Source: Candidatus Zhuqueibacterota bacterium (GTDB lineage: Bacteria; Zhuqueibacterota; Zhuqueibacteria; Thermofontimicrobiales; Thiofontviventaceae). Taken from it: a DNA stretch of 64,000 nucleotides. The first letter of the stretch is position 1, and every line of letters begins with the position of its first letter. The notes beneath the pieces are model-generated. The model was not told the origin of the DNA and searched no databases. It saw nothing but the letters and a program-made list of their open reading frames with translations. Positions 6,424 to 56,235 of the stretch are shown here, in pieces. Both the position numbers and the translations under genes were made by a program. The DNA is taken from positions 2,966 to 66,965 of the forward strand of contig JAFGDW010000261.1 of NCBI GenBank assembly GCA_016931935.1, in the 5' to 3' direction.

Positions 6424-6442
6424 ATCGTTATCCTGTTTGGCT

Positions 6443-17912: not shown

Positions 17913-17934
17913 AGCCTTCGACTTCGCTCAGGCT
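17913..17934. repeat. conserved-loop hairpin repeat, copy 1 (AGCCT-tcgacttcgctc-AGGCT)
   Basis: 5-bp stem with a 12-nt loop identical to copy 3. See the copies at 47912, 47956 and 62631. Confidence 0.75.
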
Positions 17935-39948: not shown

Positions 39949-40182
39949 TTACTCTTCATCCTTTGCCAAAATATCATCCACCGTATACCGTTTCAGCATT
40001 GTTTTGTATTTCCGCTTGTACGCCGCGTACGAAAACAAAATATCCTGTTCTGTGCCTTCCCAGTTGCAGCGGCGGCACCAGAATTCATCGAGTTGTTTAT
40101 CATACAATAAATCAAAATCGATATCACGAAACAAACAATTGGGACACCGATAATTTATTTTGCCTGTTCGACCTTGAGACAT
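39949..40182 (-). CDS. small Zn-ribbon protein (CPNC...CRRC), unknown function
   Basis: 77 aa. AGGAG lies 8 nt upstream of the ATG at 40182. Two CxxC pairs are 20 aa apart. It overlaps the upstream ORF by 28 nt. Confidence 0.55.
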   Translation of the reverse strand: MSQGRTGKINYRCPNCLFRDIDFDLLYDKQLDEFWCRRCNWEGTEQDILFSYAAYKRKYKTMLKRYTVDDILAKDEE

Positions 40183-41990: not shown

Positions 41991-42083
41991 GAAGAAACTC
42001 CTTTCAATCCCGGTTTTCAACTCCCACTCCGAAGACGGAATTTTGACAAGTCGAAATTTATCCACCTTCAAAGGAGAATTTAT

Positions 42084-44354
42084 TTATTTCAACAAAAGCG
42101 TTTTTCGAATAGCGACTCCCGTATCCGTCTCCAATCGAATTAAATAAATCCCGGTCACTAGTTCCACGGCATCCCAGCCAACAGCATAATCACCGGAACT
42201 TTGCTCATGATCGATCAACGTGGCGACTCTCTGCCCGCGCATATTATAAACCGAAAGTCTCACACGCATCCGGTGATCAATATGATAGCAAATTTTTGTT
42301 TGATGATTAAACGGATTCGGATAGTTCTGCTTCAGGCCAAAGCCTCGCGGCGCATTATTTGTGCGGGACGTAACGTTATTTGTCCCGCCCGTTACATCGA
42401 AGTAATCCCAATGCAGGGTAGTGTCATGTTTACTCTGAACCAACGATGGCGTAATAACAAGCGTTCGATTTGACTGGCGTTTCTCCCAGCCATTAGATTC
42501 GTGATTTTCAATATAAAATAGATATTCCAATAAATCACCAGCCTGCACAGCGCTGCGTGGGATGTAACAGACACCCGACCAGAATGATTCGCCGTTAACG
42601 CTGTATTGCTCTCGCGTCAACGATATTTTTGATGTCGTCCAGCTTAAACTGCTGCCGGAGATGATCGAATCGCCGCGTACCGCAACCGGGCCATGAAGTT
42701 CGGGATTGAAATAGCCGGATTTAAGAGCATTCCCCATATTGACGCGAAAATAAATCGCTATCGAATCGTTGTGAAGCTCGTAAGGCCGCCAATACTGGTC
42801 CCTGACAGTACTATTTGAATTATAGAATTGAAGCTGCATCACTGTGTCACGCTCACCAGCCACCAAAACACGGCGATTTCCCGAAAGGCCATCGACCGGC
42901 GTAATGGCGCTTTCCCAACCGAGCCGCTGGTATGTGCCATGATTGATGTCGTACCCCGTCCAAAATTTGAAGGACAGTTCATCGTCGGGATACATCTGAA
43001 ATGTCGTTTGCCAGTAATCGCCGCCAACATTGTCCAGAATAATATCAGAACTGGCTTCCCAATTAATTTTTTTACCATCGGGCAAAATATCATAGGAAAT
43101 ACCTGATACTTCGCCGCGCAGTTGAACCACGTGCCACGGCTGCAATGTATCGCTCATCGTGGCAGTGTTCAGCCGGACGGTTACATTGATCGGCGTGCCG
43201 GATGGCTCCTGCTCATTAAACACCTGCATCGACGAGAGCGCATATCCGTCAAAATCGAACAGGGTCACATTTTCCCACGGTGAACGCAGCTCGGGCACGG
43301 AAATATATTCCGGCGCCCAGTAAAACAGTCCCTTGCCTTTTCCGTTCCGTGTATTTCGGATAATGCGCATCAGGTCACGCATGAAGTTGGCCTGTCCATC
43401 TATCGAAGCCGGGTAGCCATCGTGTAGTTGACTGGCATTGCTGACAATGTTATTCTGGCTGTCGTACCACTGCAGCGTCCACGGATAGGCGGATTCCACA
43501 ATGACCAGGTCCTGTTCGTAGCGCCCGGCTAAATCGTTTAAATTGGCTTTGACAGCATCAAGCGTGCCGTGCCACCAGGGATAGTACGATAAACCGATCA
43601 CGTCAAACTGAACATCTTCAGCCAGGAGATGGTCAAAAAACCAGCGGGCCCCGGAATTATTGCCGCCGCGATCGATATGAATCATGATGCGTACCGAATC
43701 GCCATCGGCACAGTTTTCGCGCACGCCACGGATTGCAGATTTAATCAGTTCTCCAAGTTGCTGCCATTGTTGGGGCGTGTCGTAGCTGCCACCAACCCGG
43801 CCATCGTTCCAGAGCATACCCGGCGTGATTTCATTGCCGATTTGCACCATGTCAGGCAGAGTTTGCTGCTCGTAAAGCGATCGAATGACATGTTTCGTAT
43901 ACTGATACACGCTGTCGTTAAGCGCTTCGAACGACAAGCCACGCCAGGCCGCCGGTTTGGTTTGCTTTCCTGGATCGGCCCAGGTGTCAGAGTAGTGGAA
44001 ATTCAACAAAAAATCCATGTCCTGCGCTTTGATACGCTGCGCCATATACAATATTTTGTCAAGATTATTGTAATTTTGTGCCGGTGTGTGCCAGAGTTTC
44101 AGGCGGATGTAATTGAATCCCTGATCCTTAAAAATTTGCAACGGGTCAGTAGGAACGCCATTTATGGAGTATACTCCGCCTAAATCTTCAACCTGGGGGA
44201 TGAAGGAGACGTCTGCTCCTTTAATAAAATTGGTTGATTTCGTCTGACTGAATAATCGCGATGCGACGAGCATTAATGCTATTAAAAACATCCATCCATA
44301 ACGAATCCATAACTTTTCGGAGATCAACAAGGGCACCTTCTTTGTGTTTTTCAT
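42084..44354 (-). CDS. surface GH53 endo-beta-1,4-galactanase plus a tandem CBM-like module plus a T9SS CTD
   Basis: GADVSFIPQVEDLGG, NYIRLKLWHTP, NFHYSDTWADPGKQ, QIGNEITPGMLWNDG and GLSYYPWWHG. The C-terminus is LKQNYPNPFNHQTKICY...GIYLIRLETDTGVAIRKTLLLK. Confidence 0.85.
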   Translation of the reverse strand: MKNTKKVPLLISEKLWIRYGWMFLIALMLVASRLFSQTKSTNFIKGADVSFIPQVEDLGGVYSINGVPTDPLQIFKDQGFNYIRLKLWHTPAQNYNNLDKILYMAQRIKAQDMDFLLNFHYSDTWADPGKQTKPAAWRGLSFEALNDSVYQYTKHVIRSLYEQQTLPDMVQIGNEITPGMLWNDGRVGGSYDTPQQWQQLGELIKSAIRGVRENCADGDSVRIMIHIDRGGNNSGARWFFDHLLAEDVQFDVIGLSYYPWWHGTLDAVKANLNDLAGRYEQDLVIVESAYPWTLQWYDSQNNIVSNASQLHDGYPASIDGQANFMRDLMRIIRNTRNGKGKGLFYWAPEYISVPELRSPWENVTLFDFDGYALSSMQVFNEQEPSGTPINVTVRLNTATMSDTLQPWHVVQLRGEVSGISYDILPDGKKINWEASSDIILDNVGGDYWQTTFQMYPDDELSFKFWTGYDINHGTYQRLGWESAITPVDGLSGNRRVLVAGERDTVMQLQFYNSNSTVRDQYWRPYELHNDSIAIYFRVNMGNALKSGYFNPELHGPVAVRGDSIISGSSLSWTTSKISLTREQYSVNGESFWSGVCYIPRSAVQAGDLLEYLFYIENHESNGWEKRQSNRTLVITPSLVQSKHDTTLHWDYFDVTGGTNNVTSRTNNAPRGFGLKQNYPNPFNHQTKICYHIDHRMRVRLSVYNMRGQRVATLIDHEQSSGDYAVGWDAVELVTGIYLIRLETDTGVAIRKTLLLK

Positions 44355-44473: not shown

Positions 44474-46549
44474 TTATCGTAACAACGTCATTTTGTGAAC
44501 CTGTTCAAACGAACCGGCGGTCATGCGGGTAAAATAAATGCCTGATGGCACATTGTTTCCGCGCACATCTTTGCCGTTCCATTGGATGGAGTGGCTTCCC
44601 TGGTCCTGATTTCCATTTACCAGGGTATTAACAAGTTGTCCTACTATGTTGTAAACAGCAATCTTCACATGCGATTTTTCTGCAAGCTGATAGTGAATGG
44701 TGGTCTCCGGATTGAATGGATTGGGGTAATTCTGATCCAAAGCAAATTGTCTCATCGTTGTTGTATTGCCCGCATTAACAGCGGCCGGTGTCCACATATT
44801 GGGGGCGTCTTCGACAGTTAAATCAGTATCCGTCCATTGCAGTAGAGCCAGTGAATACGTTGCCGGCCACGTAATCGCGCCATCAGCCGTAATTTGTGTT
44901 GGATGAACATATTGATAATAACTACGACCTTTGGAATTGCCGCCACCGTTTTGGATAGTGCCAGACTCGGAAGTATAATTAACGCGAAAAGCCACATCAT
45001 ACGGAGCAGGCGGCGTTAGATTCATCGTTCCGGTGTACACCAAATTACCATCCGGATCGTCCAGTATGATCGGTGCGCTGTCGTAAATGCCCTGCCCCTG
45101 GGTCAATGGCAAGAGACAATCCAGCAGTTGGACCGAAACCGTATCGACTCCCGGACGGAATAATGGATTTGATGGATTTGTTTCTTCGGCTGTCGCCGGA
45201 GTCATATCAATATTAAAGGTGACTGCGATCGGAGTTTCAATAACACCTGCTTCCGGAAAACCATTAAAGAATTGATATTCAAAGCCATGATCCCCGGGCA
45301 TCATTTGATCTGTCGCAGTCGTGAAAGAGTAAATTCGATTCCCTGTGCCGAACGTCGCGGGCGCTTCCCAATAATATAATGGGTCCAAATTCAAACCCGG
45401 AATGTAATTCGGACTTAATGAATCCACGCGCGACGCATCCCATGCAATAACAGCCTTGTATTCCATGGTTGCTCCCGGGGCTTTTACGAACGATTCCTGC
45501 CCAACCCACAATCCCAAGAGTGGCTGGTATTCCATTTGAATCCCGCTTTCCGGGCCATCATTATACACTGACCACGCTTTAGCGCCGTCAATTACCAGCT
45601 TGTCGCCCAGGTTGCGATCAAACAGACCCAGTTTTTTAAGACCGTTGGTATTTATTTGCCAGATCAGATTCGCTGTAACAATATTGCCACCGGATGGTTT
45701 TTGATTATTAAAGTATGACCAATGAATAGTAGTATCTTTTGCTGCTAAATATTGGAAATAACGATTGTCTGTTGTTTCCCACACCTCACTTCCGTTTTTC
45801 ATGAACGTAAATTTGAAATTTTGCCAGGCGCCGGGAGTTAAATCTGCATTTGCTATATAGCCAACACCGGAGAAGAACGATCCGTTATCAATGCTACCGG
45901 CTTCCTGCGTGAGAATGACCGGGGTATTCCAGCCGTCATCAGGATCGAGCGGCGCGCCGCCCTGGACTTGCACAGGGCCATCTGCTGTTGCATCGAATTC
46001 GTGTGTTTCCATCTGAGCTGCCATATTAACGCGGAAGTAAACAGCGAATGAATCCGGTTTTTCTTCATACGGCCGCCAATACTGGTCCCGACGAGAGTCA
46101 TTCCCATGGTAAAACTGCAACACAACTGTCGTATCATTATTACCGGCAATGAACCAGCGATTGTCATCGCTACTCACAGGATCAGCCGGATTAATCGGGC
46201 CTTCCCAACCAGTCCAGAACAAAGTGCCGTTAGCAGCATCAAAACCCGTCCAGAATTTATATTTCAGTGTCGAACCGGGTGTCATTTCAAATGTGGCTTG
46301 CCAGTAATCGCCGCCGACATTTACCAAATTGATGCCGGTGCCGTCATCCCATGTTACAGCAGGCGTAATTTCACCGACTGCTTCGCCCCGGACTTGAACG
46401 GTGTGATGCGGCATGAGTGTATCCGGATTGGTCGCCGTGTTCAGTCGCATCGTGACCTGAATAGCATACCCTGTTTCCGGGTAATTGACCACTGCCAATA
46501 GCGCAACGACTATTACAATGATGAAAATGTCTGTGTACCATCGATTCAT
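44474..46549 (-). CDS. non-catalytic CBM-like multi-module protein with a T9SS CTD (candidate surface glycan-binding protein)
   Basis: aa 29-282 are paralogous to aa 388-655 of the adjacent GH53 (RLNTAT..DTL, NVGGDYWQ.TF, FKFWTG, RDQYWRPYE, YFRVNM). The C-terminus is LDQNYPNPFNPETTIHYQL...GIYFTRMTAGSFEQVHKMTLLR. No catalytic motif recognised. Confidence 0.7.
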   Translation of the reverse strand: MNRWYTDIFIIVIVVALLAVVNYPETGYAIQVTMRLNTATNPDTLMPHHTVQVRGEAVGEITPAVTWDDGTGINLVNVGGDYWQATFEMTPGSTLKYKFWTGFDAANGTLFWTGWEGPINPADPVSSDDNRWFIAGNNDTTVVLQFYHGNDSRRDQYWRPYEEKPDSFAVYFRVNMAAQMETHEFDATADGPVQVQGGAPLDPDDGWNTPVILTQEAGSIDNGSFFSGVGYIANADLTPGAWQNFKFTFMKNGSEVWETTDNRYFQYLAAKDTTIHWSYFNNQKPSGGNIVTANLIWQINTNGLKKLGLFDRNLGDKLVIDGAKAWSVYNDGPESGIQMEYQPLLGLWVGQESFVKAPGATMEYKAVIAWDASRVDSLSPNYIPGLNLDPLYYWEAPATFGTGNRIYSFTTATDQMMPGDHGFEYQFFNGFPEAGVIETPIAVTFNIDMTPATAEETNPSNPLFRPGVDTVSVQLLDCLLPLTQGQGIYDSAPIILDDPDGNLVYTGTMNLTPPAPYDVAFRVNYTSESGTIQNGGGNSKGRSYYQYVHPTQITADGAITWPATYSLALLQWTDTDLTVEDAPNMWTPAAVNAGNTTTMRQFALDQNYPNPFNPETTIHYQLAEKSHVKIAVYNIVGQLVNTLVNGNQDQGSHSIQWNGKDVRGNNVPSGIYFTRMTAGSFEQVHKMTLLR

Positions 46550-46785: not shown

Positions 46786-47832
46786 TCAAAACGCCAACTG
46801 TACCGAAAAATGATTAACGCTTCCCAAATAGCGGAATTCCTGAAATGCATACCCAACGTTCAGACTCACGCCGCTAACGGATGGCAGCCGAATTGCACCG
46901 CCAAGTGTCATGCCTTTTTCCCGTTCTTCCAGTAACAATTCATTAAATCCGCCTTGCAGAACGACAGCCTCATGGAAACTGGCCCATTCAATGCCGAGAT
47001 TAATATACTGGGCATTATCGTTGGGATTGACACCATCACAAGCAAACGTGACACGCGATGCATCCGACAGCCACCAATCCCAGGAGACCCCCATCCGCAT
47101 CATGATCGGTGGATCGAACGAATCGGTATCCATTTTGGCAACGATGTTGGGATTATTGCCTTCATGCGTAGGGGCCACATCAACATACGAATTCAGATCA
47201 TCACCATCCATTGCCATACGCGTTCCAATATTGGATATCGCCACGCCAAACCGCACATTTTTAAACGGCGTCACGAACATTGTGCCCACATCAAACGCGA
47301 ATCCCTGGGCAATAGAGTGATAAATCCGTTCCTGAATAAATTTGAAATTGGCGCCAATCGAAAACCGATCAGTCAAGCTGCTGGCAAACGCCAGGCCGGC
47401 AGCATAACTGGCAGCATTAAAGGTTTCACCGGTTCCCATCGGCGCATCCGGGGTGGTTACATCCATATCTTCAGATGTCAACGATACGACATTCACCCCC
47501 ACCACGCCAATACGTTGCACTGGTAACAAAACGCCGATGTACTGAAAATCCAGGCCTGGCAGCCACGGCGAGTGATGGATGAACAATGTTCGTTCGGTTT
47601 GCGGCGCAATGTTGCCGGGATTCCAGAACATTGCCGAGCCATCGTCGGCAATTGCCGTGAATGCACTGCCCATAGCGATTGCCTTGGTGCCGACTGGAAT
47701 CCGCAGAAACGCTGCCGCCGATGTGCCGACTTTTTTGACTTCCTGCCCAAAGCTTACAGCGTGGAGGCTGATGGTATACAGAGCACAGCCGATGAAAATT
47801 GTATGAAGGTTAAAAATTCGTCTGTTCTTCAT
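46786..47832 (-). CDS. PorV/PorQ-like outer-membrane beta-barrel (T9SS-associated family)
   Basis: Signal peptide, then VGTSAAAFLRIPVGTKAIAMGSAFTAIADDGSAMFWNPGNIA, which matches my memory of the PorV/PorQ N-terminal signature. Alternating beta-strand pattern, ending in F. Confidence 0.6.
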   Translation of the reverse strand: MKNRRIFNLHTIFIGCALYTISLHAVSFGQEVKKVGTSAAAFLRIPVGTKAIAMGSAFTAIADDGSAMFWNPGNIAPQTERTLFIHHSPWLPGLDFQYIGVLLPVQRIGVVGVNVVSLTSEDMDVTTPDAPMGTGETFNAASYAAGLAFASSLTDRFSIGANFKFIQERIYHSIAQGFAFDVGTMFVTPFKNVRFGVAISNIGTRMAMDGDDLNSYVDVAPTHEGNNPNIVAKMDTDSFDPPIMMRMGVSWDWWLSDASRVTFACDGVNPNDNAQYINLGIEWASFHEAVVLQGGFNELLLEEREKGMTLGGAIRLPSVSGVSLNVGYAFQEFRYLGSVNHFSVQLAF

Positions 47833-47911
47833 GGTTTTTACCTTTTCTTCTCGTTCCGTCAGTCGCTGCCGGAATGTCGTTGTGGGGCTGTATAAAAAGT
47901 CTTGTCAAGCT

Positions 47912-47937
47912 TCATCCTGAGCGTAGTCGAAGGATGA
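47912..47937. repeat. conserved-loop hairpin repeat, copy 2 (inverted orientation): CATCCT-gagcgtagtcga-AGGATG
   Basis: The loop is the reverse complement of the family loop, with one difference. Confidence 0.75.
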
Positions 47938-47955
47938 TAACTTACGATAAAATAA

Positions 47956-47979
47956 CATGCTTCGACTTCGCTCAGCATG
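47956..47979. repeat. conserved-loop hairpin repeat, copy 3: CATGCT-tcgacttcgctc-AGCATG
   Basis: The loop is identical to copy 1 and the stem is completely different but still complementary. Confidence 0.75.
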
Positions 47980-48144
47980 AAGAAATTATACGAATTTTGA
48001 CTTTTGATACTGCCTCCTTCTTCATTTTGTCTATTCGTTTCATTCTGATTATTTTTAAATTTTAGTAAATTTTAAATACTGAGCGGAGACCGTCCAGACT
48101 GTGTTCCGCCACAGAGCGACGGAACAATTTAAACGATTGTTTCA

Positions 48145-51100
48145 TCACTTTATCACCGCAAATGTACCCGTTTTCTGCCCGATACCCGGCGCGTCAATAT
48201 GGTACAGGTACACACCATAGGAAATATCCAGTCCTTCGCGGCTAAGAACATCCCAGACTTCGGCGCCGTTTTCGATTGTGGTTTCATGATCCAGCTTGTC
48301 CACGAGTGTGCCGTTCACATCGTAAATGCGAATAGTACAAATATTTGGTAAATTGATAAAATGGATTTCCCGCGGGCCGCGGCCACTTCGATAAGTATTC
48401 TTCGGTTCCCATGATACAGTGGCAATATACGGATTGGGCACAACACGAATATCATCCAATTCCCGCTTTGCAAGCGATTTCGAGGTCATAGCACCTTTCA
48501 TGGTGAAACGATAACTATCCTGAGTTAAGAATGGTTTTTTCAAATAAATATTCAACGTGTCACCCGGTGCAGGATTTTCACCGTTGGGTTTCAGGTTCAG
48601 ATAAATCTGCCATGTATATACAAGTTTGCCTGTTTGATTCGGTTCCAGTAACATGATAATGTCGGTATTGTCTGCGTCACGGGGATCGACGCTTAACCGC
48701 CCATCACTGCCATCCAATTCGGCAAAAGCAAATTCAACCGGATTGCCCGAAATTATATTGAATACCTGGAAATTCACCTGTTTGGATGGTAGCTTAAAGA
48801 ACCCGATTGAGGTATCCTTCGATGCGCTCACGCCTACATCGCCGATAATTACCCGGTAATCGTTCGGACGTTTTTCGCCCTTCACACCAATAAACGTCAC
48901 CGGTGAAAACACAAACGGATAAATTTCCCCACGATTCCAGCCGGATTTAACGGCATCCAGCGACACATTCTTTTCGTTGATTAACGTGAGCTGTACTCCA
49001 TCGAACACCGGAATTTCATCATCCTCATGAATGAGCGTGCTTTTGTCGATGACGATTGTTTCCGGACCTGTGATATCTGTGACAGTGAAATTTTTGGTGG
49101 TCAATGTGTCGGTGTCTTTGCCCGTTTTTAAAGTGTCTTCGAACGTAATCTTATACGTATGACCATGTTGGATATTTGCAGGATCGATGACCTCAAGCTG
49201 AATTTCACCGGTGGCGCTACCTGTCGCATGAGTAAAACTTTCCACTTCGGCGGGCATGTAACCAGCGGCTTTAGCGGCGGGTACGACAACTTTAACATTC
49301 GTTCCCGTGCGAATATCCCCCTGCAAATTCACATCAATACTAATTGGTGTTTCCGACGGAGCAATATCTGCTGCAGGGAAACCGAAATCATACGCAGTTA
49401 CCGCGTAAAAATAGCGCTGACCATTGACCAGACCTTGATCTTTAAACGAATGAACGAGACCTGTATCATCACCTAGATAGAACTGGATGCCATTGAAACC
49501 GACCGGATCAAATCCTGTAATGCCGTCTTTGCGATCGAATTGGGCGATGGGCTTGTATAAACGCGCCACACCAAATCCATCTGTGATGATTTTCGCATCG
49601 AGAAATGCCGGATCGGTGGCGCGATAGATGCGGTAGCCCTCAAAGTCCTCCGCGATACCGCCAATGTCGGCAATGTAGCGGTCACGCGAATATTCCGCAA
49701 TTTCGTCCCAGTACAGAGTGACCTCTCCATCGCCAGGGACGGCTGTTAATGTCACTTGCGTTGGCGCTTTGGCGAACTGATAATCGGCTTCATACGCTTT
49801 GCGCGATTCACCCAGCTTGCCGATCACACTGTTAATGTCTTCGTCACGCGATTGACCGCCGGCAGAGATAGCTACGGAAATCGCCATGCGTTGCCGTTGG
49901 CCGGGATCGAGCGGGAAAAATCCGGATGAAACAAATGTGTCGTATTCACCTGTCGGACGCGGCAGGTCAAAACTGCCAGGGGTCATAAAATAGTCAAAGA
50001 GATAACGATCCGGCGTGGAATTGTAGGAAATATCGCCAACGGGAATTTGCACCGCTGCGGTCAGGCCGATCAAATCAGTTTCAGATACGTCGGTTTTATC
50101 AATATTGGCTTCCCCTTGAAATTCCGTGCCTGCACCTGATGTGGGAACGCCATCGTTCTCACCGGGATCGCCAGTAGCCTTTTTACCGTCCAGTCCCAGA
50201 TCGTCATTCAAACTGTTCCAGTCGCCATCATTATCAAAGCCGTCATCGCGGGATTCATCCACCATGGGCGCGATTGTCGTATAACTCATCGCAGTATTTT
50301 TCCCCGGCACGATGAAGCCACGTTTAATAGTGTCACCCACAGCGAATGCCAGATAATTTATATAACGCACCGGTCCTTCTTCCTGGGTAATTTCATCGAA
50401 ACGCCAGCGATGCAACGTGTACGATTCGTCAATTAAGCCATCCAAATCTTCATCCAACAAATTGGCGGTGGTGTCTTCTTCGAGCGTAATTCCATCAGCC
50501 GGAAGTTCAATTTCCTGTCCCATACTGACGACGGTCCCACCGTTGGCAGGATAGGTGGTGATACGACGCTCAAATGTTTTGTTATCAATCAACACTATTT
50601 TATCGCCGGGAAAAAGCTGCCGCGGTGAGAAATCGTTATCGACAAAATGCGGAAGTAGTGTTTCAGTATCGCCCTCCATCATTGCGAGAATCTGCGGATT
50701 GGTATCTGCGTCGCCATCGTTATCAATGCCATCGACTTGATTACCGGGCGTTTCCAGGTATTTAATCGCAGCCACACCAACCGGAGTGCCGGCGAACGCA
50801 TCAGTGCCGGTACGATCACTATCGGTCAGGAAGGCAATGTCGGACTGGAGATCGATAAACGGCTGGTCATCAAGACCGTCGCCGCCAACATAATCAGCAA
50901 GAAAAATCAGGAACGATGTTTTGGGAATCCGTTTGGTCCCATCGTTTTTAATGTCATGAATAAAAAAGATTTCATCGTTAATCAACACCTGCGACCAGGC
51001 GAATGTCCGCACATCCATTAGCAGTCCGAGGCCATGGCGCGACAGATCCGTTGTATCGGGATAATAATTGAAGCGGTCGTACAGATCATCGGAGCAGCGG

Positions 51101-51663
51101 TAGTAAAGCTCCTGATCCGCATTGAATTCATTCTTGCCAAAAAATCCATTCCACGAACCAATCCACCCGGGATCGCCGGAATCGCCACGTTTATCGCGCC
51201 AACCTCCCTGGGATGCTGGCGGCCAGGTTTCCGGATCATCACTTTTAGCCACTCGCATTGGGTCCAGGTCAGGATTCTGAAATCCGGGCACTGGCTCCAT
51301 CGACCAGGTATTGCCCTCAGGGCTGGAACGCCAGGCAAACACATCAACCATTTTAATGGATTCATCCTGATCGTTTTTCACTTCACCACCAATCCAGATA
51401 CCCACGATCGAAATGTAAATCCGGTCGGTGTTCTTCGGCCATTCGTAGTTCACTGATTCCGGCACTTCCCGTGGCGCGCCGCTGTAACCGGTATTGAAAA
51501 TTGATGTCCGCAGGTTGTTACCATCAATATTGGAAAATGCCCGAAAATTCTGATCCCCGCGCTGATCGGATGGCACGTGCTGCAAGGTTTGCGCATAACC
51601 AGTAGTAGTGATGATTACTACGAAGATGATAAGCTTCGGAATTAGTTTTTTTGTGAATTGCAT
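48145..51663 (-). CDS. 1172-aa secreted protein with Asp-rich Ca-binding-like loops and a variant Por-type C-terminal domain
   Basis: Signal peptide ending GYAQT. DNDGDADTNP, DEDLDGLIDE and DGFDNDGDWNSLNDDLGLDGKK loops. The C-terminus VVPNPYIATVSWEPKN...CTIRIYDVNGTLVDKL...GVYLYHIDAPGIGQKTGTFAVIK resembles a T9SS CTD with an insertion. Confidence 0.65.
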   Translation of the reverse strand: MQFTKKLIPKLIIFVVIITTTGYAQTLQHVPSDQRGDQNFRAFSNIDGNNLRTSIFNTGYSGAPREVPESVNYEWPKNTDRIYISIVGIWIGGEVKNDQDESIKMVDVFAWRSSPEGNTWSMEPVPGFQNPDLDPMRVAKSDDPETWPPASQGGWRDKRGDSGDPGWIGSWNGFFGKNEFNADQELYYRCSDDLYDRFNYYPDTTDLSRHGLGLLMDVRTFAWSQVLINDEIFFIHDIKNDGTKRIPKTSFLIFLADYVGGDGLDDQPFIDLQSDIAFLTDSDRTGTDAFAGTPVGVAAIKYLETPGNQVDGIDNDGDADTNPQILAMMEGDTETLLPHFVDNDFSPRQLFPGDKIVLIDNKTFERRITTYPANGGTVVSMGQEIELPADGITLEEDTTANLLDEDLDGLIDESYTLHRWRFDEITQEEGPVRYINYLAFAVGDTIKRGFIVPGKNTAMSYTTIAPMVDESRDDGFDNDGDWNSLNDDLGLDGKKATGDPGENDGVPTSGAGTEFQGEANIDKTDVSETDLIGLTAAVQIPVGDISYNSTPDRYLFDYFMTPGSFDLPRPTGEYDTFVSSGFFPLDPGQRQRMAISVAISAGGQSRDEDINSVIGKLGESRKAYEADYQFAKAPTQVTLTAVPGDGEVTLYWDEIAEYSRDRYIADIGGIAEDFEGYRIYRATDPAFLDAKIITDGFGVARLYKPIAQFDRKDGITGFDPVGFNGIQFYLGDDTGLVHSFKDQGLVNGQRYFYAVTAYDFGFPAADIAPSETPISIDVNLQGDIRTGTNVKVVVPAAKAAGYMPAEVESFTHATGSATGEIQLEVIDPANIQHGHTYKITFEDTLKTGKDTDTLTTKNFTVTDITGPETIVIDKSTLIHEDDEIPVFDGVQLTLINEKNVSLDAVKSGWNRGEIYPFVFSPVTFIGVKGEKRPNDYRVIIGDVGVSASKDTSIGFFKLPSKQVNFQVFNIISGNPVEFAFAELDGSDGRLSVDPRDADNTDIIMLLEPNQTGKLVYTWQIYLNLKPNGENPAPGDTLNIYLKKPFLTQDSYRFTMKGAMTSKSLAKRELDDIRVVPNPYIATVSWEPKNTYRSGRGPREIHFINLPNICTIRIYDVNGTLVDKLDHETTIENGAEVWDVLSREGLDISYGVYLYHIDAPGIGQKTGTFAVIK

Positions 51664-51761
51664 ATTGGAATTCCTGTTGTATTTTTAAACTTATATTTTC
51701 TATTTTAATCACTCACTCATTCCGCCTGTCTCTGGCGGCACGATTTATGGGGGAATTTCTA

Positions 51762-54524
51762 TTAAAATCCAAACTTCACTCCCACTTGAACTCGCCGCGG
51801 CGCAGAATAATAATCCGGGCGCACGAACCAGGTCGGATCGGCTTCGACATCTTGCACTTGATAAATCGTATGATCCGGCAATCCACTGTCGGTAAACACA
51901 TCGATGGGATTTTTCGCGTCGAACAGATTGTACACCCGCATAAAAAGTTCCGTATCGAATTTATAGAGATTCAGCGATTTGAATGCGTACAGATCCACCA
52001 TAAACCGATTGGGCTTGCGACGAAGATTGGTCGGTAATCCTGAAATTACGTTCTGTCCGGTTTGGGTTGCAAACGGGAAGTCGGGAGTATAGGGCTGCCC
52101 GGAATAATAGCGTGCAAGAATATTCAGGCCAAGATCACGCTTGCCCACAAACACGTTCAAGTTGAGCGCATGGCGTTGATCCCAATCAAGCGGAGCGAGC
52201 TGCTTCTTGGGTTCAGCGCCGGAATTGAGTGCATCGTATTCATCTTCAGGACTGGAATTGGTGCCTTGAACGACTTGATATGTGTAATCCACATCCAGCG
52301 CAAAATTTTTGGACATTCGCTTAATAATGGAAACTGTTACACCCTTCACATTAGCGTAATCTCGATTGATATTTTTGGAGTATGTGACACCGGCAACGTA
52401 GGTAGGAATCGGCGCGCTGGTTGAAATCCAGTCGCGAATATCGCGGTAATAGCCGGTAATATCGACGCCAATATTATCGGATAATTGTTGCTTCAATCCC
52501 AGCTCGTACATCGTGGTGCGCTGGGGATTGAGATCAGGATTTCCGTAAGGTCCCCAAATCGCCTGTGTTTCTGCCAGCTTCAGTTGATCTCCCTCGTACA
52601 ATTGGCGATACTCGGGAATTTGCTGAAAAATACCATAGGAAAAGTGTATCACACCTTTATCCGTAATCGGATATGCGATACCGAAGCGCGGACTCACCTG
52701 CGTTTTAGCGGAGCTGTTTTCATACCAAAAGGCCTCGCGTTCTTCTAATGCATATTCATTGGTTATTGTCTGTTCATCCAGACTGATGACGCCGTCACTA
52801 TTGGAGTCTTTGTAAATATGGATTAGCCGCTGGGGATTGTACACATTGGGATCTTTGGGGTCATCCGGAATATGGCCATTGGCTTGGAAATAATCGAAGC
52901 GCATCCCAAAATTGATGACGACATTTTCATACTCAATTTTATCCTGAAGGTATGCTGAAAATGCATCCGGCTCACGTTTAAACAAATTGTGATTGGAAGA
53001 CGATACCGCTTCAATGAACGGCTTAAACGGTTCGATTTGTATACCGCTGGCATCACGTTGCGGTACCAGCGTTATCTCTTCAAAATTTACAATGTCACGC
53101 TTGATTTCCACACCGGTTTTCAATTGATGATTTCTTGTGACCTGGCTGGTGAAATCAAGTTTCCCGATCAGGCTACGGGTGGAACGCTCCGACCGGAACA
53201 GATCGGTGCCGGCCTTGAAAAATTCATTCGAGCCGGCAGTGAGTGAATCGGGGTGAACGTAACGTGAATCATACGGATCTTCGTAGAGATACGATTTATC
53301 CTTATTTTCCTTCACGGAAAAAATCGTTTCGTAAAACGTGTTTTTGTTCAACACATGCGTAAGTTTTGCAATTATTGTTGCGCCATAGCCGGTTGAGTGA
53401 CGCATACCTTCGGGATTAAGGCGATAGTTATGATTGTACCAGTGGCTTTTGTAAGTATTTCCCAGTGCGTCAATTTTTAATGTCAGCGGCTCCAGCAGTT
53501 TCCATTCAAACGCGGCCTGGCCGCTCCAGCGTTCGTTGGCATTCATCGCAACCGGACTACTGTCACCGACTACTGGCACCAATTGGCCGCTCACCATTCG
53601 TTTTCTGCCTTGCGGACTGTAAGCGTTGGGGCCGTACAGGTAGCCGCCATTTTTCAGACGTCGTGCAGTAGCAAAAAAAGTCAGACGATCTTTTAAAAAC
53701 GGACCACTAACAGTGCCCGCCAGATTGTAATCTGATACGGGAGTGAAGTCATCGATATTCCAGAAAATATCGGTGTCCTTGCTTAAATAGTCGCCGGTCC
53801 AGGCTTCCACGCGGCCGTTGAATTCGTTACTACCGGTTTTTGTGACAATATTAATGACGCCGCTCATGGCGTTGCCGTACTCAGCGTTGAACGTTCCGCT
53901 GATCACCTGCAATTCCTGGATAGACTCATTCTCAACGGTCAACGCCTGCTCGCGGTTAAAATCATCAGTAATGCTGATACCGTTAACCATATAGGAAATT
54001 TCCGACGACCGGCCGCCGCGAATGTGCAAATGATTATCGACATCGCGTGTGATCCCTGCCTGTAAATCGAGGATATCGTCGACATTCTGCACCGGCATTT
54101 TATCGATTTTATCCGATTGAATACGCGCCTCGGATGAGGTTAAATCCTTACGCACCAGCGGCCGTTCAGCGATAATTACCACCTCGGCGCCCTGTAGTGT
54201 TTCCTGCTGCATCGAAATATCCACGTGGGTTGTCAGATCGGTAAGCACCTCAACTTCTTTAACGTAGGTGCGCTGATATCCCATAAACTCCGCACGGATT
54301 GTATGCTGTCCGGGCGGCACCCGCAAAATAATGTATTGCCCGCTTCTGTCCGCGGCTGCGCCCAACGACGTTTTGTCAATAATCACATTCGCCCCCGGTA
54401 AAGGCTCCCCGGTGCTGCCATCCCTGACCACGCCCACGATTTTACCGGCAGTCTGCGCACAGGATGGCTTGTGTATGAAAACCAGAAACAACGGGATGAA
54501 CATAATGAATCGGATTTTTTTCAT
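51762..54524 (-). CDS. TonB-dependent outer-membrane receptor (SusC-like; CarboxypepD_reg domain, plug, barrel)
   Basis: GKIVGVVRDGSTGEPLPGANVII...YIILRVPPGQHTIRAEFMGYQ (regulatory-like domain). Plug segment DDILDLQAGIT...IRGGRSSEISYMVNGISI. C-terminus VGVKFGF. Confidence 0.8.
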   Translation of the reverse strand: MKKIRFIMFIPLFLVFIHKPSCAQTAGKIVGVVRDGSTGEPLPGANVIIDKTSLGAAADRSGQYIILRVPPGQHTIRAEFMGYQRTYVKEVEVLTDLTTHVDISMQQETLQGAEVVIIAERPLVRKDLTSSEARIQSDKIDKMPVQNVDDILDLQAGITRDVDNHLHIRGGRSSEISYMVNGISITDDFNREQALTVENESIQELQVISGTFNAEYGNAMSGVINIVTKTGSNEFNGRVEAWTGDYLSKDTDIFWNIDDFTPVSDYNLAGTVSGPFLKDRLTFFATARRLKNGGYLYGPNAYSPQGRKRMVSGQLVPVVGDSSPVAMNANERWSGQAAFEWKLLEPLTLKIDALGNTYKSHWYNHNYRLNPEGMRHSTGYGATIIAKLTHVLNKNTFYETIFSVKENKDKSYLYEDPYDSRYVHPDSLTAGSNEFFKAGTDLFRSERSTRSLIGKLDFTSQVTRNHQLKTGVEIKRDIVNFEEITLVPQRDASGIQIEPFKPFIEAVSSSNHNLFKREPDAFSAYLQDKIEYENVVINFGMRFDYFQANGHIPDDPKDPNVYNPQRLIHIYKDSNSDGVISLDEQTITNEYALEEREAFWYENSSAKTQVSPRFGIAYPITDKGVIHFSYGIFQQIPEYRQLYEGDQLKLAETQAIWGPYGNPDLNPQRTTMYELGLKQQLSDNIGVDITGYYRDIRDWISTSAPIPTYVAGVTYSKNINRDYANVKGVTVSIIKRMSKNFALDVDYTYQVVQGTNSSPEDEYDALNSGAEPKKQLAPLDWDQRHALNLNVFVGKRDLGLNILARYYSGQPYTPDFPFATQTGQNVISGLPTNLRRKPNRFMVDLYAFKSLNLYKFDTELFMRVYNLFDAKNPIDVFTDSGLPDHTIYQVQDVEADPTWFVRPDYYSAPRRVQVGVKFGF

Positions 54525-54546
54525 TCCTGTATTCCTCTATATATAT

Positions 54547-56235
54547 TTACATCGTTGATGCAAGTAATTTCTCCGGAAACGTTCTGACTTTAACCGTTCC
54601 GCGAATTGAATCTACCAATGCCTTTCGTGTTTTTTTCTCCCACATCGGTCGCAGGCCGTTTTCCAGCATCGGCCGGGCCTCATCGTAAGCGCGTAATTGT
54701 TTCGCGGATTTTCCCACGCATTTAAAAAACGCGTACTGATTATTGATCAGGATTGGTCCTGTCCACTCACCAATCTTCATCGGAAATATTTTATCAGCAT
54801 ATGCGTCAAGATCATTGTAACTGAATTCACCAATATCGCCGCCATTTTCCGCACTGTATCTTCTAACAGAAAATGAGCGGACAAGCTGCTCAAACGATTC
54901 ATGCTGTGATAATCGACTTATAATTGCACCGGCAAAATTCTCATTCTCGACAGCTAATTCGCACAAATGAATCCGTGGCGGAATGGCGAATTTCTCGGGA
55001 TTTTGCTGATAATATTTTCGAAGGGTATCTTCCGGGATGACAGTCTGTTCGGCGATCACCTGCTGCATTTGGGTGAGCAGATAATCGTCCAGTTTAGTTT
55101 GTACGGCTGCTTTATATTCATCGGTTTGATCAAGCTTGAAATGCTTTGCCTGTGAAATGATCCAACTCCGCACAATAATTCCGGCAATGAAATCCTGCAG
55201 GTTTTCCTTATTTCGAATCCACCGCTGTTGATCATCGGATGAAAATGCAGCCTGCTCCTGAAATGCAGCCACATCCCATGTTCCGAGTTTAGATCGCACC
55301 AGACGTTGCTGTTTAAATTCATTATCGATGATTGTATTGTTGTTTTCATCCTGTTGCTTCAACACCTGCCAGAATTTATTCAGCGTCGATTCATCAAATC
55401 GTATATTCAATTGTAGCCGCATGGAATCGACAAAGGCGCGTGTCAGAACTTTATGTTTACGATAATTTACGTAGATTGCCAGTTTGTCCCGGCGTTGTGT
55501 ATACTCAGTTTCCGTTAGCAGTGGCCGGATTTGGCGCTCCTGGACTTGAATAATGCTGTATCCGGTTGCGGTGCGTACCGGTTTGGATATTTTCCCAATC
55601 GGCAGAGCGAAAGCGCTATCTTCAAATGTCGGATCCATTTCATCAACAGTGAAAAATCCCAATGAACCACCGTTATCCCGAAGTTGCGGATCCTGAAAAA
55701 TGTCGTGTGCTATTGCTTCCCAGGATACACCATTTAGAAGCAACTGATACAGAGAATCGGCCTGGTGACGTGATAAAGCATATAAATGACGCGCATTGAT
55801 TTTTGTGTTATAGCGAACGAACATATTCTGCAATTCTGTTTCGGAAATTGCGATATTCTTCAACACCTTCTGTTGGAGATAGCAATTAAGCAATTCCTGA
55901 ATTTTAATTCGTTCCTGTTCAAATTTTCCGGCGTCACAATTTAGAAAACCTCGCTCGCGGGCATTATGAATTAATAAAGCTTCGTCGATCATAGAGCGGA
56001 ATATTTCATTGCGAACTTGTGCATTATCCGCTATCTGGATTTTCTGTCGGGTTGCGTTGAAGCGGGATTGAAAATCAGCGATTGTAATTTTTCGGTGACC
56101 TATAATGGCGAGTGTGGAATCATTATTCCTGGAGCAGGAAAATGGGCTAATGCTGATGATAAGTAGTATGAATAATAAATGTTGAGAAAACATCGTCCGC
56201 CTTAAAAGATATAGTGTAGAGATAAAGTCATTCAT
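54547..56235 (-). CDS. SurA/PpiD-like peptidyl-prolyl isomerase with two parvulin-like domains; possible lipoprotein
   Basis: GGSLGFFTVDEMDPTFEDSAFALPIGKISKPVRTATGYSIIQV and GGDIGEFSYNDL...MKIGEWTGPILINNQYAFFKCV. SPFSC is a possible lipobox. An alternative start is ATG 56193. Confidence 0.65.
   Translation of the reverse strand: MNDFISTLYLLRRTMFSQHLLFILLIISISPFSCSRNNDSTLAIIGHRKITIADFQSRFNATRQKIQIADNAQVRNEIFRSMIDEALLIHNARERGFLNCDAGKFEQERIKIQELLNCYLQQKVLKNIAISETELQNMFVRYNTKINARHLYALSRHQADSLYQLLLNGVSWEAIAHDIFQDPQLRDNGGSLGFFTVDEMDPTFEDSAFALPIGKISKPVRTATGYSIIQVQERQIRPLLTETEYTQRRDKLAIYVNYRKHKVLTRAFVDSMRLQLNIRFDESTLNKFWQVLKQQDENNNTIIDNEFKQQRLVRSKLGTWDVAAFQEQAAFSSDDQQRWIRNKENLQDFIAGIIVRSWIISQAKHFKLDQTDEYKAAVQTKLDDYLLTQMQQVIAEQTVIPEDTLRKYYQQNPEKFAIPPRIHLCELAVENENFAGAIISRLSQHESFEQLVRSFSVRRYSAENGGDIGEFSYNDLDAYADKIFPMKIGEWTGPILINNQYAFFKCVGKSAKQLRAYDEARPMLENGLRPMWEKKTRKALVDSIRGTVKVRTFPEKLLASTM

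What the first reader, a model, noticed from the sequence alone, without database searches (positions are those of the whole stretch)
46786..56235. SusD-less uptake module: PPIase, TonB-dependent receptor, 1172-aa CTD protein and a dedicated PorV-like barrel
Four co-directional genes form the core of the glycan locus. In canonical Bacteroidetes PULs the gene after susC is a ~550-aa SusD lipoprotein.
- Here that position holds a 1172-aa protein with Asp-rich Ca-loop motifs and a variant T9SS-type C-terminal domain that has an insertion after the PNPY motif.
- It is followed by a PorV/PorQ-like barrel, the family that shuttles CTD cargo in the T9SS.
- A SurA/PpiD-like chaperone leads the block.

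This suggests a receptor-associated partner that is T9SS-delivered and held by its own PorV paralogue. I do not know this arrangement as a characterised system.
Basis: partly seen in the sequence, partly recalled or inferred. Interest (0 to 1): 0.7.

Follow-up and report, generated by a model that had tools for sequence, protein, structure and literature searches.

The report
TonB receptor, T9SS partner, PorV-like anchor
A galactan-degrading gene cluster contains a three-gene outer-membrane cassette (TonB-dependent receptor, a 1172-residue secreted protein of an undescribed family, and a PorV/PorQ-type barrel) that recurs, always together, across many relatives of the Bacteroidota; it probably takes the place of the well-known SusC/SusD nutrient-uptake pair, but this has not been tested.

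Summary
On the minus strand at 46786-56235 lie four real genes:
- a SurA/PrsA-like double-parvulin PPIase;
- a TonB-dependent receptor (TBDR) that fails the SusC/RagA model;
- a 1172-aa protein ("BIG") with no Pfam or NCBIfam match, Asp-rich loops and a T9SS type-A-like C-terminal domain (CTD) carrying a 14-residue insertion after PNPY;
- a 348-aa barrel that passes the PorV/PorQ family model but not the PorV or PorQ equivalogs.

The core is the triad, not the tetrad. In related loci from KSB1, Calditrichota, Ignavibacteria, Marinimicrobia, Rhodothermales/Balneolaceae and others:
- a TBDR lies directly upstream of BIG in 68/68 assessable cases;
- a PorV-like gene lies directly downstream in 69/72;
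- the PPIase is present in only 17/59.

Several genomes carry more than one cassette. Neighbours are rich in T9SS-CTD proteins and carbohydrate-active enzymes (CAZymes). BIG belongs to a large family (906 clusters at 50% identity). Its model is confident (pLDDT 88.8), mostly beta, not SusD-like, and has no close PDB fold match.

Best reading: a SusCD-analogous uptake module whose surface partner is delivered by the T9SS and held by its own PorV-like barrel. This is inferred, not shown. I found no paper describing it.

The parts
54547..56235 (-). SurA/PrsA-like periplasmic chaperone with two parvulin (PPIC) domains. It has an N-terminal signal, possibly a lipoprotein signal (…SISPFSC). Accessory member of the module.
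   Evidence: Pfam Rotamase_3, Rotamase and Rotamase_2 score above cut-off, and SurA_N is sub-threshold. The best PDB sequence matches are PrsA and SurA. A PPIase sits upstream of the TBDR in 17/59 related cassettes, and in all galactan-type orthologous loci examined where upstream sequence was held.
51762..54524 (-). TonB-dependent receptor: signal peptide, CarboxypepD_reg-like N-terminal extension (residues 29-117), TonB-box-like AEVVIIA (about 113-119), plug (126-223), beta-barrel ending in …KFGF.
   Evidence: Pfam domains score above cut-off. TIGR04056 SusC/RagA scores 80.5 against a cut-off of 368, and only the N-terminus matches. No SusC structures are matched at 1e-5. A TBDR lies directly upstream of a BIG homologue in 68/68 assessable loci.
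48145..51663 (-). 'BIG': a 1172-aa secreted multidomain protein of an unnamed family (whole gene).
   Evidence: No Pfam, NCBIfam or PDB sequence match. Family size is 906 clusters at E<=1e-30. AlphaFold model pLDDT 88.8, pTM 0.78. It is the most conserved gene of the block between genomes: 60% identity against 52% (TBDR), 48% (PorV-like) and 30% (PPIase).
49774..51576 (-). BIG residues 30-630: conserved N-terminal beta-rich domain with Asp-rich (DxDxDG-type) loops, presumably Ca2+-binding. It contains an optional inserted subdomain (residues 318-466, nt 50266-50712).
   Evidence: Conservation and occupancy profile. Invariant D314/D316/D318, E470, D477, D525 and D530. The insert is absent from about half of the family. 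Evolutionary distances of this region track the TBDR most closely (partial r = 0.76).
49339..49764 (-). BIG residues 634-775: Fn3-like domain (…VTLYWD…FEGYRIYR…).
   Evidence: Secondary structure of the model. Fibronectin type III chains are among the top fold matches. One family member hits Pfam fn3.
48484..49338 (-). BIG residues 776-1060: beta-sandwich domains. This is the most variable part of the protein family-wide and a candidate specificity-determining or ligand-binding region.
   Evidence: Mean conservation is 0.36 family-wide against 0.63 among galactan-locus orthologues. pLDDT is about 90.
48148..48447 (-). BIG residues 1073-1172: variant T9SS type-A-like CTD. It carries a conserved insertion (residues about 1080-1098, nt 48370-48426, consensus WEPxxxxxxGRGxRxI) after PNPY.
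   Evidence: Alignment with three canonical CTDs of the window. TIGR04183 scores 17.9 bits against a cut-off of 23. Family members hit PF18962 down to E = 3.5e-10. It is the most conserved region of BIG. Among orthologues its identity is 74%, against 39-52% for ordinary cargo CTDs in the same genomes. The insertion is the only low-confidence loop of the model.
46786..47832 (-). PorV/PorQ-family outer-membrane beta-barrel (348 aa, signal peptide, C-terminal …SVQLAF). Proposed cognate anchor or shuttle for BIG.
   Evidence: NF033709 scores 168.6 bits against a cut-off of 90. PorQ (84.7/220), PorV2 (69.4/325) and PorV (57.3/250) all fall below their cut-offs. The only PDB sequence hit is F. johnsoniae PorV 6h3i_F, E = 0.001. 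It lies directly downstream of BIG homologues in 69/72 loci.
47833..48144 (-). 312-nt gap between BIG and the PorV-like gene, holding a strong hairpin (arms 47917-47932 and 47960-47975). Probably an inserted palindromic repeat, not part of the system.
   Evidence: RNA fold z = -5.6. The arm sequence recurs at 17916-17931. Orthologous loci have gaps or overlaps of only a few to about 15 nt.
44474..46549 (-). 691-aa T9SS cargo with a canonical CTD. Its N-terminal module is shared with the GH53 enzyme. Candidate surface glycan-binding protein and a frequent fifth gene of the module.
   Evidence: PF18962 37.8 bits and TIGR04183 35.8 bits, both above cut-off. Residues 15-281 are 41% identical to residues about 373-653 of the GH53 protein. 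A homologue lies within 2.5 kb downstream of the PorV-like gene in 20/55 cassettes.
42084..44354 (-). GH53 endo-beta-1,4-galactanase with a T9SS CTD: the surface enzyme of the locus.
   Evidence: Glyco_hydro_53 359.6 bits and Por_Secre_tail 32.1 bits. It is syntenic in the orthologous loci L001, L003, L085 and L087.

Best explanation
TBDR, BIG and the PorV-like barrel form one outer-membrane nutrient-capture and import unit. It is the functional counterpart, in non-Bacteroidia FCB lineages, of the SusC/SusD pair. In this window it serves a beta-1,4-galactan locus.

Proposed sequence of events:
1. All proteins cross the inner membrane by Sec (signal peptides are seen).
2. The SurA-like PPIase, where present, chaperones the barrels and/or BIG in the periplasm (inferred).
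3. BIG is recognised by the type IX secretion system through its CTD and crosses the outer membrane. This is inferred from CTD homology and from the canonical CTD cargo encoded next door.
4. Instead of being cleaved and attached to LPS, its unusually conserved CTD, with the family-specific insertion loop, stays attached to the co-encoded PorV/PorQ-family barrel, as PorZ does with PorQ and PorU with PorV (inferred).
5. Held at the surface next to the TBDR, BIG binds oligosaccharides released by the CTD-anchored GH53 and hands them to the TBDR for TonB-powered import. Its conserved Ca-loop N-terminal domain would dock on the receptor, and its variable beta-sandwich region would contact the substrate (inferred).
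6. Periplasmic GH53, GH2 and GH42 enzymes, an MFS transporter, a GH112 phosphorylase and GalT complete catabolism (gene content shown).
For: Shown:
- The triad is essentially invariant. A TBDR is directly upstream in 68/68 cases and a PorV-like gene directly downstream in 69/72, across loci labelled KSB1, Calditrichota, Ignavibacteria, Marinimicrobia, Rhodothermales/Balneolaceae, WOR-3 and others.
- Several loci hold two cassettes in tandem or close together (L010, L033, L051, L079), and one MAG has two on separate contigs (L014 and L057). This is the paralogous expansion typical of substrate-specific uptake systems.
- The three proteins diverge in step. Distance correlations are 0.89 for TBDR-BIG, 0.69 for BIG-PorV-like and 0.66 for TBDR-PorV-like over 48 cassettes (47 from related loci plus the window).
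- Of 188 sampled neighbouring genes, 40 carry Por_Secre_tail and 19 are alpha-amylases. CBM20, CBM48, GH53, GH66, sugar symporters and LacI-type regulators also occur. No SusD family appears in the frequency lists.
- The galactan version (PPIase-TBDR-BIG-PorV-like, then the ~690-aa CTD protein) recurs in at least five other genomes, and GH53-CTD follows wherever that part of the contig is intact.
- The window encodes canonical CTD cargo, so a T9SS is expected.
- The BIG CTD shares the type-A motifs, and some family members pass PF18962.
- The CTD is the most conserved part of BIG. It is far more conserved than ordinary cargo CTDs in the same genomes: 74% against 39-52%.
- The conserved insertion is the only disordered loop in an otherwise confident model. 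That pattern fits a binding element.

Precedent: the CTDs of PorU and PorZ are retained and bind PorV and PorQ. Cognate PorV-like barrels have been proposed to protect CTDs from cleavage (PMC10202324).
Against: - No interaction was computed or measured.
- The window's own CTD scores below the TIGR04183 cut-off.
- After controlling for the TBDR, BIG regions co-vary only weakly with the PorV-like barrel. Partial r is at most 0.27, and 0.22 for the CTD.
- The mirror-tree correlations are confounded by species phylogeny.
- One abundant Marinimicrobia cassette (L081) is not surrounded by CAZymes, so glycans are not the only possible substrate.
- The matches of BIG's CTD to the CTDs of PorU and PorZ are not specific. 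An ordinary cargo CTD hits them too, and more strongly.
The sample is therefore not exhaustive.
Confidence: 0.55

Rival explanations
1. BIG plus the PorV-like barrel is a locus-specific T9SS attachment or handling module, analogous to PorZ-PorQ. It positions or processes the CTD-bearing enzymes encoded nearby. The TBDR imports products independently and is merely co-regulated.
For: - 21% of sampled neighbours carry T9SS CTDs.
- The barrel's best equivalog-level match is PorQ (84.7 bits).
- PorZ (5m11) is the top, though weak, fold match for BIG.
- PorU and PorZ are the best PDB profile hits, through the CTD.
Against: - BIG has no Peptidase_C25 domain or any other catalytic signature, and no invariant Cys or His.
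- The TM-score to PorZ is only about 0.1.
- The CTD hits to PorU and PorZ are generic.
- BIG tracks the TBDR more tightly than it tracks the barrel.
- BIG is never seen without a TBDR directly upstream (68/68).
Confidence: 0.15
2. BIG is an independent surface adhesin, glycan-binding protein or Ca-dependent enzyme. It is secreted by the T9SS and processed like any other cargo. The PorV-like barrel is only an extra shuttle paralogue. No stable TBDR-BIG-barrel complex exists.
For: - BIG has a multidomain beta-sandwich/Fn3 architecture with Asp-rich loops, typical of surface binding proteins.
- Its central region varies between loci.
Against: - A generic cargo would not need its own barrel in 69/72 loci, nor a TBDR in 68/68.
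- Its CTD is much more conserved than cleaved cargo CTDs of the same genomes.
- The same N-terminal domain is conserved across alpha-glucan, beta-galactan and other loci. That argues against a substrate-specific enzyme.
Confidence: 0.15
3. The TBDR works outward, like Myxococcus Oar (a CarboxypepD_reg-type TBDT required for secretion of PopC). It exports BIG or another product rather than importing nutrients.
For: The domain layout is shared with Oar-type receptors: CarboxypepD_reg, plug and barrel, with PF25183 hits. The Oar precedent is PMC6434023, listed; only its abstract was seen.
Against: - BIG already carries a T9SS-type signal.
- The loci are catabolic, with periplasmic and cytoplasmic glycosidases and inner-membrane sugar transporters. 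That calls for an importer.
Confidence: 0.05

Closest known systems
SusC/SusD (RagA/RagB) pairs of Bacteroidota polysaccharide utilization loci
   Same: - A TBDR with a CarboxypepD_reg-like N-terminal extension is followed immediately by the gene for a surface partner.
- The unit is embedded in CAZyme loci with regulators and inner-membrane sugar transporters.
- There are several diverged copies per genome.
- Receptor and partner co-diverge.
   Different: - The receptor fails the SusC/RagA model (80.5 bits against a cut-off of 368).
- The partner is a 1100-1300-aa beta-rich protein with a Sec signal and a T9SS-type CTD, not a ~550-aa alpha-helical TPR lipoprotein.
- A third gene, a PorV/PorQ-family barrel, is obligatory.
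PorZ-PorQ and PorU-PorV pairs of the T9SS attachment complex (Porphyromonas gingivalis)
   Same: A CTD-bearing surface protein is paired with a PorV/PorQ-family barrel. In the known pairs the CTD is retained and serves as the anchor (PMC10202324).
   Different: - The known pairs are single-copy housekeeping parts of the secretion machine and are not linked to a TBDR.
- BIG lacks the beta-propellers of PorZ and the C25 peptidase domain of PorU.
- The barrel does not reach the PorV or PorQ equivalog cut-offs.
Type-B CTD cargo with cognate PorP/SprF-like barrels (e.g. SprB-SprF in Flavobacterium johnsoniae)
   Same: A dedicated barrel gene sits next to the gene of the cargo it handles. The CTD is probably not cleaved (PMC10202324).
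   Different: - The barrel family differs: PorP/SprF there, PorV/PorQ here, and no PorP/SprF hit was found.
- The CTD here is type-A-like, not type B (no TIGR04131 hit).
- The known pairs serve motility adhesins, not nutrient loci.
Other TBDR plus surface-protein pairs (BtuB-BtuG in Bacteroides, TbpA-TbpB in Neisseria); from general knowledge, not tested here
   Same: A TonB-dependent barrel is capped or fed by a surface-exposed binding protein encoded next to it.
   Different: Those partners are lipid-anchored lipoproteins. Here the anchoring is proposed to be protein-protein, through a T9SS CTD and a dedicated barrel.

Membership tests
SusC/RagA TonB-linked outer membrane protein (TIGR04056) | Score at or above the curated cut-off over the whole receptor | tested here: not met
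   80.5 bits against a cut-off of 368.25. Only residues 28-233 match (N-terminal extension plus plug). No SusC structures are hit at E<=1e-5.
TonB-dependent receptor (generic) | Plug domain plus TonB_dep_Rec beta-barrel above the Pfam gathering scores | tested here: met
   Plug 42.0 bits (cut-off 23.9); barrel 87.1 bits (cut-off 27).
SusD/RagB | Match to the SusD Pfam families | tested here: not met
   The 1172-aa protein has no Pfam or NCBIfam hit at E<=0.01. None of 42 family members hit a SusD family.
SusD/RagB | Lipoprotein signal (lipobox cysteine) | tested here: not met
   The N-terminus MQFTKKLIPKLIIFVVIITTTGYAQTL has no cysteine. The family consensus likewise ends in AQ without Cys.
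SusD/RagB | All-alpha TPR-like fold | tested here: not met
   The model (pLDDT 88.8) is overwhelmingly beta-strand. The top 50 PDB fold matches contain no SusD-like entry.
PorV/PorQ family (NF033709) | Score at or above the curated cut-off, full-length | tested here: met
   168.6 bits against a cut-off of 90; residues 37-348 match profile positions 1-326 of 326.
PorV proper (NF033710) / PorQ proper (NF033711) / PorV2 (NF052325) | Equivalog cut-offs | tested here: not met
   57.3 against 250, 84.7 against 220, and 69.4 against 325.
FadL/OmpP1 (Toluene_X) | Pfam or NCBIfam match to FadL-type models | tested here: not met
   No such hit at E<=0.01. Only UPF0164 and PorV appear in Pfam.
T9SS type A sorting domain (TIGR04183 / PF18962) | C-terminal ~75-aa domain scoring above cut-off | tested here: inconclusive
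   The window protein scores 17.9 bits against a cut-off of 23. Five of 42 family members hit PF18962, best E = 3.5e-10. The motifs align with three canonical CTDs apart from a 14-residue insertion.
T9SS type A sorting domain | Secretion depends on the T9SS; fate of the CTD (cleaved or retained) | not testable with these tools
   This needs T9SS mutants and C-terminal peptide mass spectrometry.
PorU sortase (NF033707, peptidase C25) | Full-length match including the C25 catalytic domain with a Cys/His dyad | tested here: not met
   14.2 bits against a cut-off of 420; only the CTD aligns. No C25 Pfam hit in 42 members. No invariant Cys or His outside the CTD.
SurA (NF008038) / PrsA equivalogs | Equivalog cut-offs | tested here: not met
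   SurA 41.9 against 394; PrsA 105.2 against 343. The parvulin domains themselves pass Pfam. It is therefore a SurA/PrsA-like parvulin chaperone, not an orthologue.

The most novel reading that the evidence does not exclude
A widespread and so far undescribed outer-membrane uptake architecture exists in the FCB superphylum (KSB1, Calditrichota, Ignavibacteria, Marinimicrobia/SAR406, Rhodothermales/Balneolales). In it the type IX secretion system supplies the substrate-capturing partner of a TonB-dependent transporter. A Ca-binding protein of about 1150 aa, with a new N-terminal domain, is tethered non-covalently by a retained variant CTD to a dedicated PorV/PorQ-type barrel. It plays the role that the SusD lipoprotein plays in Bacteroidia.
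Probability: 0.45. Interest if true: 0.8.

Novelty: new variant of a known kind. Interest (0 to 1): 0.72.

Why it matters
- SusC/SusD pairs are the standard marker for finding and counting polysaccharide utilization loci. Lineages that use this cassette instead would be invisible to that criterion. Their glycan-uptake capacity, including that of abundant marine Marinimicrobia and sediment KSB1/Calditrichota, would be underestimated.
- Mechanistically, the cassette would link two systems so far treated separately: T9SS secretion and anchoring, and TonB-dependent import.
- It would extend the idea of a cognate PorV-like barrel holding an uncleaved CTD from the secretion machine itself to nutrient acquisition.
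- It defines a large protein family (906 clusters at 50% identity at E<=1e-30) with no Pfam or NCBIfam model and no structural relative for its N-terminal domain of about 600 residues.

Tried and rejected
- **BIG as a divergent PorU, with the pair being porU-porV.** Rejected. Only the CTD aligns with PorU, there is no C25 domain in 42 members, and there are several copies per genome, each next to a TBDR.
- **Special affinity of BIG's CTD for the CTDs of PorU and PorZ.** Withdrawn. An ordinary cargo CTD from the window hits the same models, and more strongly.
- **High conservation (58-80% across phyla) meaning a housekeeping machine unrelated to the glycan locus.** Rejected. These close homologues are orthologues that all sit in the same galactan locus. 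More distant paralogues sit in other loci.
- **First AlphaFold run, with 50 close orthologues.** Poor (pLDDT 65.7), and its fold search was uninformative. A more diverse 65-sequence alignment fixed the model. The whole-chain fold search still gave only Fn3/Ig-chain and PorZ matches at TM about 0.1. Domain-wise searches were not possible.
- **Promoter and terminator scan.** No enrichment over shuffles.
- **Literature.** Ten full-text searches were attempted, one of which was rejected for term syntax; none found a paper describing this arrangement.
- **The M. roseus genome paper.** It calls Mros0761-0759 'SusC, SusD, SusE'. I could not check whether that is this cassette. The one contig held here that is labelled M. 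roseus (L047) is a different locus, with CBM9 and an esterase.
- **Per-domain mirror-tree analysis to locate the barrel-binding region.** Only weak signal.


Full report
**1. What is in the window**

Four ORFs lie on the minus strand exactly at the stated bounds: 54547-56235 (562 aa), 51762-54524 (920 aa), 48145-51663 (1172 aa) and 46786-47832 (348 aa). The gaps between them are 22, 98 and 312 nt.

- **PPIase (562 aa).** It has two parvulin-type PPIase regions above the Pfam cut-offs and a sub-threshold SurA_N match. Its best solved relatives are PrsA and SurA.
- **TBDR (920 aa).** It is a standard TonB-dependent receptor with a CarboxypepD_reg-like N-terminal extension, a plug and a barrel. 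It scores only 80.5 bits on the SusC/RagA model against a cut-off of 368, and only through its N-terminus. No SusC structure is matched at 1e-5.
- **BIG (1172 aa).** No Pfam or NCBIfam hit at E<=0.01 and no PDB sequence match.
- **PorV-like barrel (348 aa).** It passes the PorV/PorQ family model (168.6 bits against 90). It fails the PorV, PorQ and PorV2 equivalogs. It shows no FadL-type hit. Its only PDB sequence match is Flavobacterium PorV.

**2. The C-terminal domain of BIG**

The last 100 residues align with the three canonical T9SS CTDs encoded elsewhere in the window. They share the PNP[FY], IxIY, W[DN], [SY]G[IV]Y and terminal K/R motifs, and carry a 4+10-residue insertion directly after PNPY.

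Alone, this CTD scores 17.9 bits on TIGR04183, against a cut-off of 23. Among 42 diverse family members, 5 hit PF18962 (best E = 3.5e-10), 8 hit FlgD_ig and 5 hit CHU_C. Apart from a single weak fn3 match, no other Pfam family is matched. The domain is therefore a real but divergent T9SS-type CTD.

It also matches the CTD portions of PorU and PorZ. This is not specific, because an ordinary cargo CTD from the window matches them more strongly.

**3. The surrounding locus**

The block sits in a beta-galactan catabolic cluster.

- Downstream: a 691-aa CTD protein, GH53 with a CTD, two unknown ORFs, GH112, GH42, an MFS sugar transporter, two GH53 enzymes without a CTD, and GalT.
- Upstream: GH97 (apparently disrupted), GH2, and a truncated GH3 at the window edge.

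Residues 15-281 of the 691-aa protein are 41% identical to the region between the catalytic domain and the CTD of the GH53 enzyme. This suggests a shared glycan-binding module.

**4. Homologues and synteny**

BIG has more than 1200 detectable homologues. The best 120 are full-length at 57-80% identity. Where they are named, they come from candidate division KSB1 and Melioribacteraceae, and every name given is 'hypothetical protein'. The window itself is therefore most likely from KSB1.

An exhaustive profile search finds 906 clusters (50% identity) at E<=1e-30 and 3518 at E<=1e-10.

*Galactan-type orthologues.* Five loci were looked up by exact protein: a Melioribacteraceae genome, two unclassified genomes, a 4.1-Mb JGI contig, and the closest relative. 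All show PPIase-TBDR-BIG-PorV-like followed by the ~690-aa CTD protein. GH53-CTD comes next in all except one assembly (L086), where that position holds only a 230-aa ORF; the near-identical L087 contig has it intact. Between these genomes BIG is the most conserved gene: about 60% identity, against 52% for the TBDR, 48% for the barrel, 45% for the CTD protein and 30% for the PPIase.

*Wider sample.* A scan of species-representative genomes returned 80 loci. As deposited, they are labelled KSB1, Calditrichota, Ignavibacteriales, Marinimicrobia, Balneolaceae, Rhodothermales, WOR-3 and Stahlbacteria, with a few probably mis-binned labels. In these loci and those:

- a TBDR homologue lies directly upstream of BIG in 68 of 68 assessable cases;
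- a PorV-like homologue lies directly downstream in 69 of 72 (one exception has the order TBDR-barrel-BIG);
- a PPIase lies upstream of the TBDR in only 17 of 59;
- a homologue of the 691-aa CTD protein follows the barrel in 20 of 55.

Tandem or multiple cassettes occur in several genomes: L010, L033, L051 and L079, plus L014 and L057 from one MAG.

*Co-divergence.* Over 48 complete cassettes (47 from related loci plus the window), the pairwise distances of the three proteins correlate: 0.89 for TBDR-BIG, 0.69 for BIG-barrel and 0.66 for TBDR-barrel. Shared phylogeny contributes to these values.

**5. Neighbours of the cassette**

Two random samples of 94 neighbouring ORFs each (188 of 356) gave these counts:

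| Family | Count |
|---|---|
| Por_Secre_tail | 40 |
| Alpha-amylase | 19 |
| CBM20 | 10 |
| CBM48 | 7 |

GH53, GH66, rhamnosidase, sodium:solute symporters, LacI-type regulators and ABC sugar-binding proteins also occurred. No SusD family appeared in the frequency lists.

A locus labelled Melioribacter roseus has a CBM9+CTD protein and an SASA-type esterase. A very abundant marine Marinimicrobia cassette (homologue clusters with hundreds of member sequences) has no CAZymes nearby. It has only an arylsulfotransferase-like CTD protein a few kilobases upstream of the TBDR.

The cassette is therefore a general unit. It is usually, but not always, embedded in glycan loci whose enzymes are T9SS cargo.

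**6. Structure of BIG**

With 50 close orthologues the model was poor (pLDDT 65.7). With 65 diverse sequences it became confident (pLDDT 88.8, pTM 0.78). The layout is:

| Residues | Feature |
|---|---|
| 1-27 | Signal helix |
| ~30-630 | Large beta-rich domain with long, well-ordered Asp-rich loops; optional inserted subdomain at 318-466 |
| 634-775 | Fn3-like domain |
| 776-1060 | Beta-sandwich domains |
| ~1062-1071 | Short helix |
| 1073-1172 | CTD |

The only disordered internal segment is the CTD insertion (1080-1095). Whole-chain Foldseek against the PDB gives only multi-Fn3/Ig chains and PorZ, at TM about 0.06-0.10. There is no SusD-like or peptidase match.

Family-wide invariant residues are mostly Asp, Glu, Gly and aromatic, with no invariant Cys or His. 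This fits Ca-binding and structural roles rather than a protease.

Conservation is highest in the CTD (0.62 family-wide, 0.81 among orthologues). It is lowest in residues 840-1020 (0.32 and 0.60).

In the same set of galactan-locus genomes, BIG's CTD is 74% identical (body 65%). The CTDs of the two ordinary cargo proteins are 52% and 39% identical (bodies 49-50%).

**7. Interpretation**

*Shown:*
- the gene families;
- the near-absolute linkage of TBDR, BIG and the PorV-like barrel;
- paralogous expansion of the cassette;
- its association with catabolic loci and CTD cargo;
- the non-SusD nature of BIG;
- the unusual constraint on its CTD.

*Inferred:* BIG is exported by the T9SS, keeps its CTD, and is held by its own barrel beside or over the TBDR as a substrate-capturing partner.

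The review PMC10202324 records that the CTDs of PorU and PorZ are not processed and bind PorV and PorQ. It speculates that cognate PorV-like barrels protect CTDs from cleavage. That is the closest mechanistic precedent.

Per-domain distance analysis shows that the N-terminal core and the variable region follow the TBDR (partial r = 0.76 and 0.69). The CTD and residues 467-630 show the largest residual correlation with the barrel, but it is small (0.22-0.27). This is suggestive only.

**8. Rivals**

- **A local attachment module, PorZ/PorQ-like.** It fits the enrichment of CTD neighbours. It does not explain the obligatory TBDR or the lack of any catalytic or propeller domain.
- **A free-standing adhesin or enzyme.** This does not explain the dedicated barrel or the conserved CTD.
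- **An outward-acting, Oar-like TBDT** (PMC6434023, abstract seen). This is unlikely given the T9SS signal on BIG and the catabolic context.

**9. Novelty**

Ten full-text searches were attempted with combinations of PorV, PorQ, TonB-dependent, SusD, T9SS and the relevant taxa; one was rejected for term syntax. None found a description of this arrangement.

Two papers come closest:
- The M. roseus genome paper labels Mros0761-0759 SusC/SusD/SusE (PMC3534657). I could not check those genes.

I rate the finding a new variant of a known kind: a TBDR plus surface-partner system with a new partner family and a T9SS/PorV-like mode of anchoring. The mechanism remains untested.

Noticed in passing
window 56549-58330 (minus strand): The GH97 gene looks disrupted. 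The 460-aa ORF lacks the first ~110 positions of GH97_N. A signal peptide and the missing N-terminal part lie upstream in another frame, with in-frame stops. This is either a pseudogene or an assembly error.
   Followed up: partly
window 47833-48144; also 17916-17931: The 312-nt gap between BIG and the PorV-like gene holds a strong hairpin (arms 47917-47932 and 47960-47975; RNA fold z = -5.6). The arm sequence CTGAGCGAAGTCGAAG recurs at 17916-17931. Orthologous loci have almost no gap here, so this looks like an inserted palindromic (REP/MITE-like) element.
   Followed up: partly
window 44474-46549 and 42084-44354: A module of about 270 aa is shared between the 691-aa CTD protein (residues 15-281) and the GH53-CTD enzyme (residues ~373-653), at 41% identity. 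It has no Pfam model. It is a candidate beta-galactan-binding module.
   Followed up: partly
window 22022-27667, 21197-21940, 27966-28676: A 1881-aa FG-GAP/bacterial-Ig protein with a canonical T9SS CTD is flanked by two small PEGA-domain ORFs. It is unrelated to the galactan locus.
   Followed up: no
window 16615-17274: A DUF642 protein carries a PEP-CTERM sorting motif. The organism may therefore also have an exosortase system alongside the T9SS.
   Followed up: no
window 40155-42071 and 61317-62567: Three ORFs inside or beside the glycan locus (356 aa, 266 aa and 416 aa) have no Pfam or NCBIfam match.
   Followed up: partly
L081 (Candidatus Neomarinimicrobiota T3L19) 2366-14133; proteins P0121-P0240: A Marinimicrobia version of the cassette is extremely abundant in marine metagenomes, with homologue clusters of hundreds of member sequences. 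It stands outside any CAZyme cluster, and an arylsulfotransferase-like CTD protein lies a few kilobases upstream of the TBDR. Its substrate is unknown.
   Followed up: partly
L022 4679-12331: One Ignavibacteriales locus has the permuted order TBDR, PorV-like, BIG, with a PPIase downstream instead of upstream.
   Followed up: no
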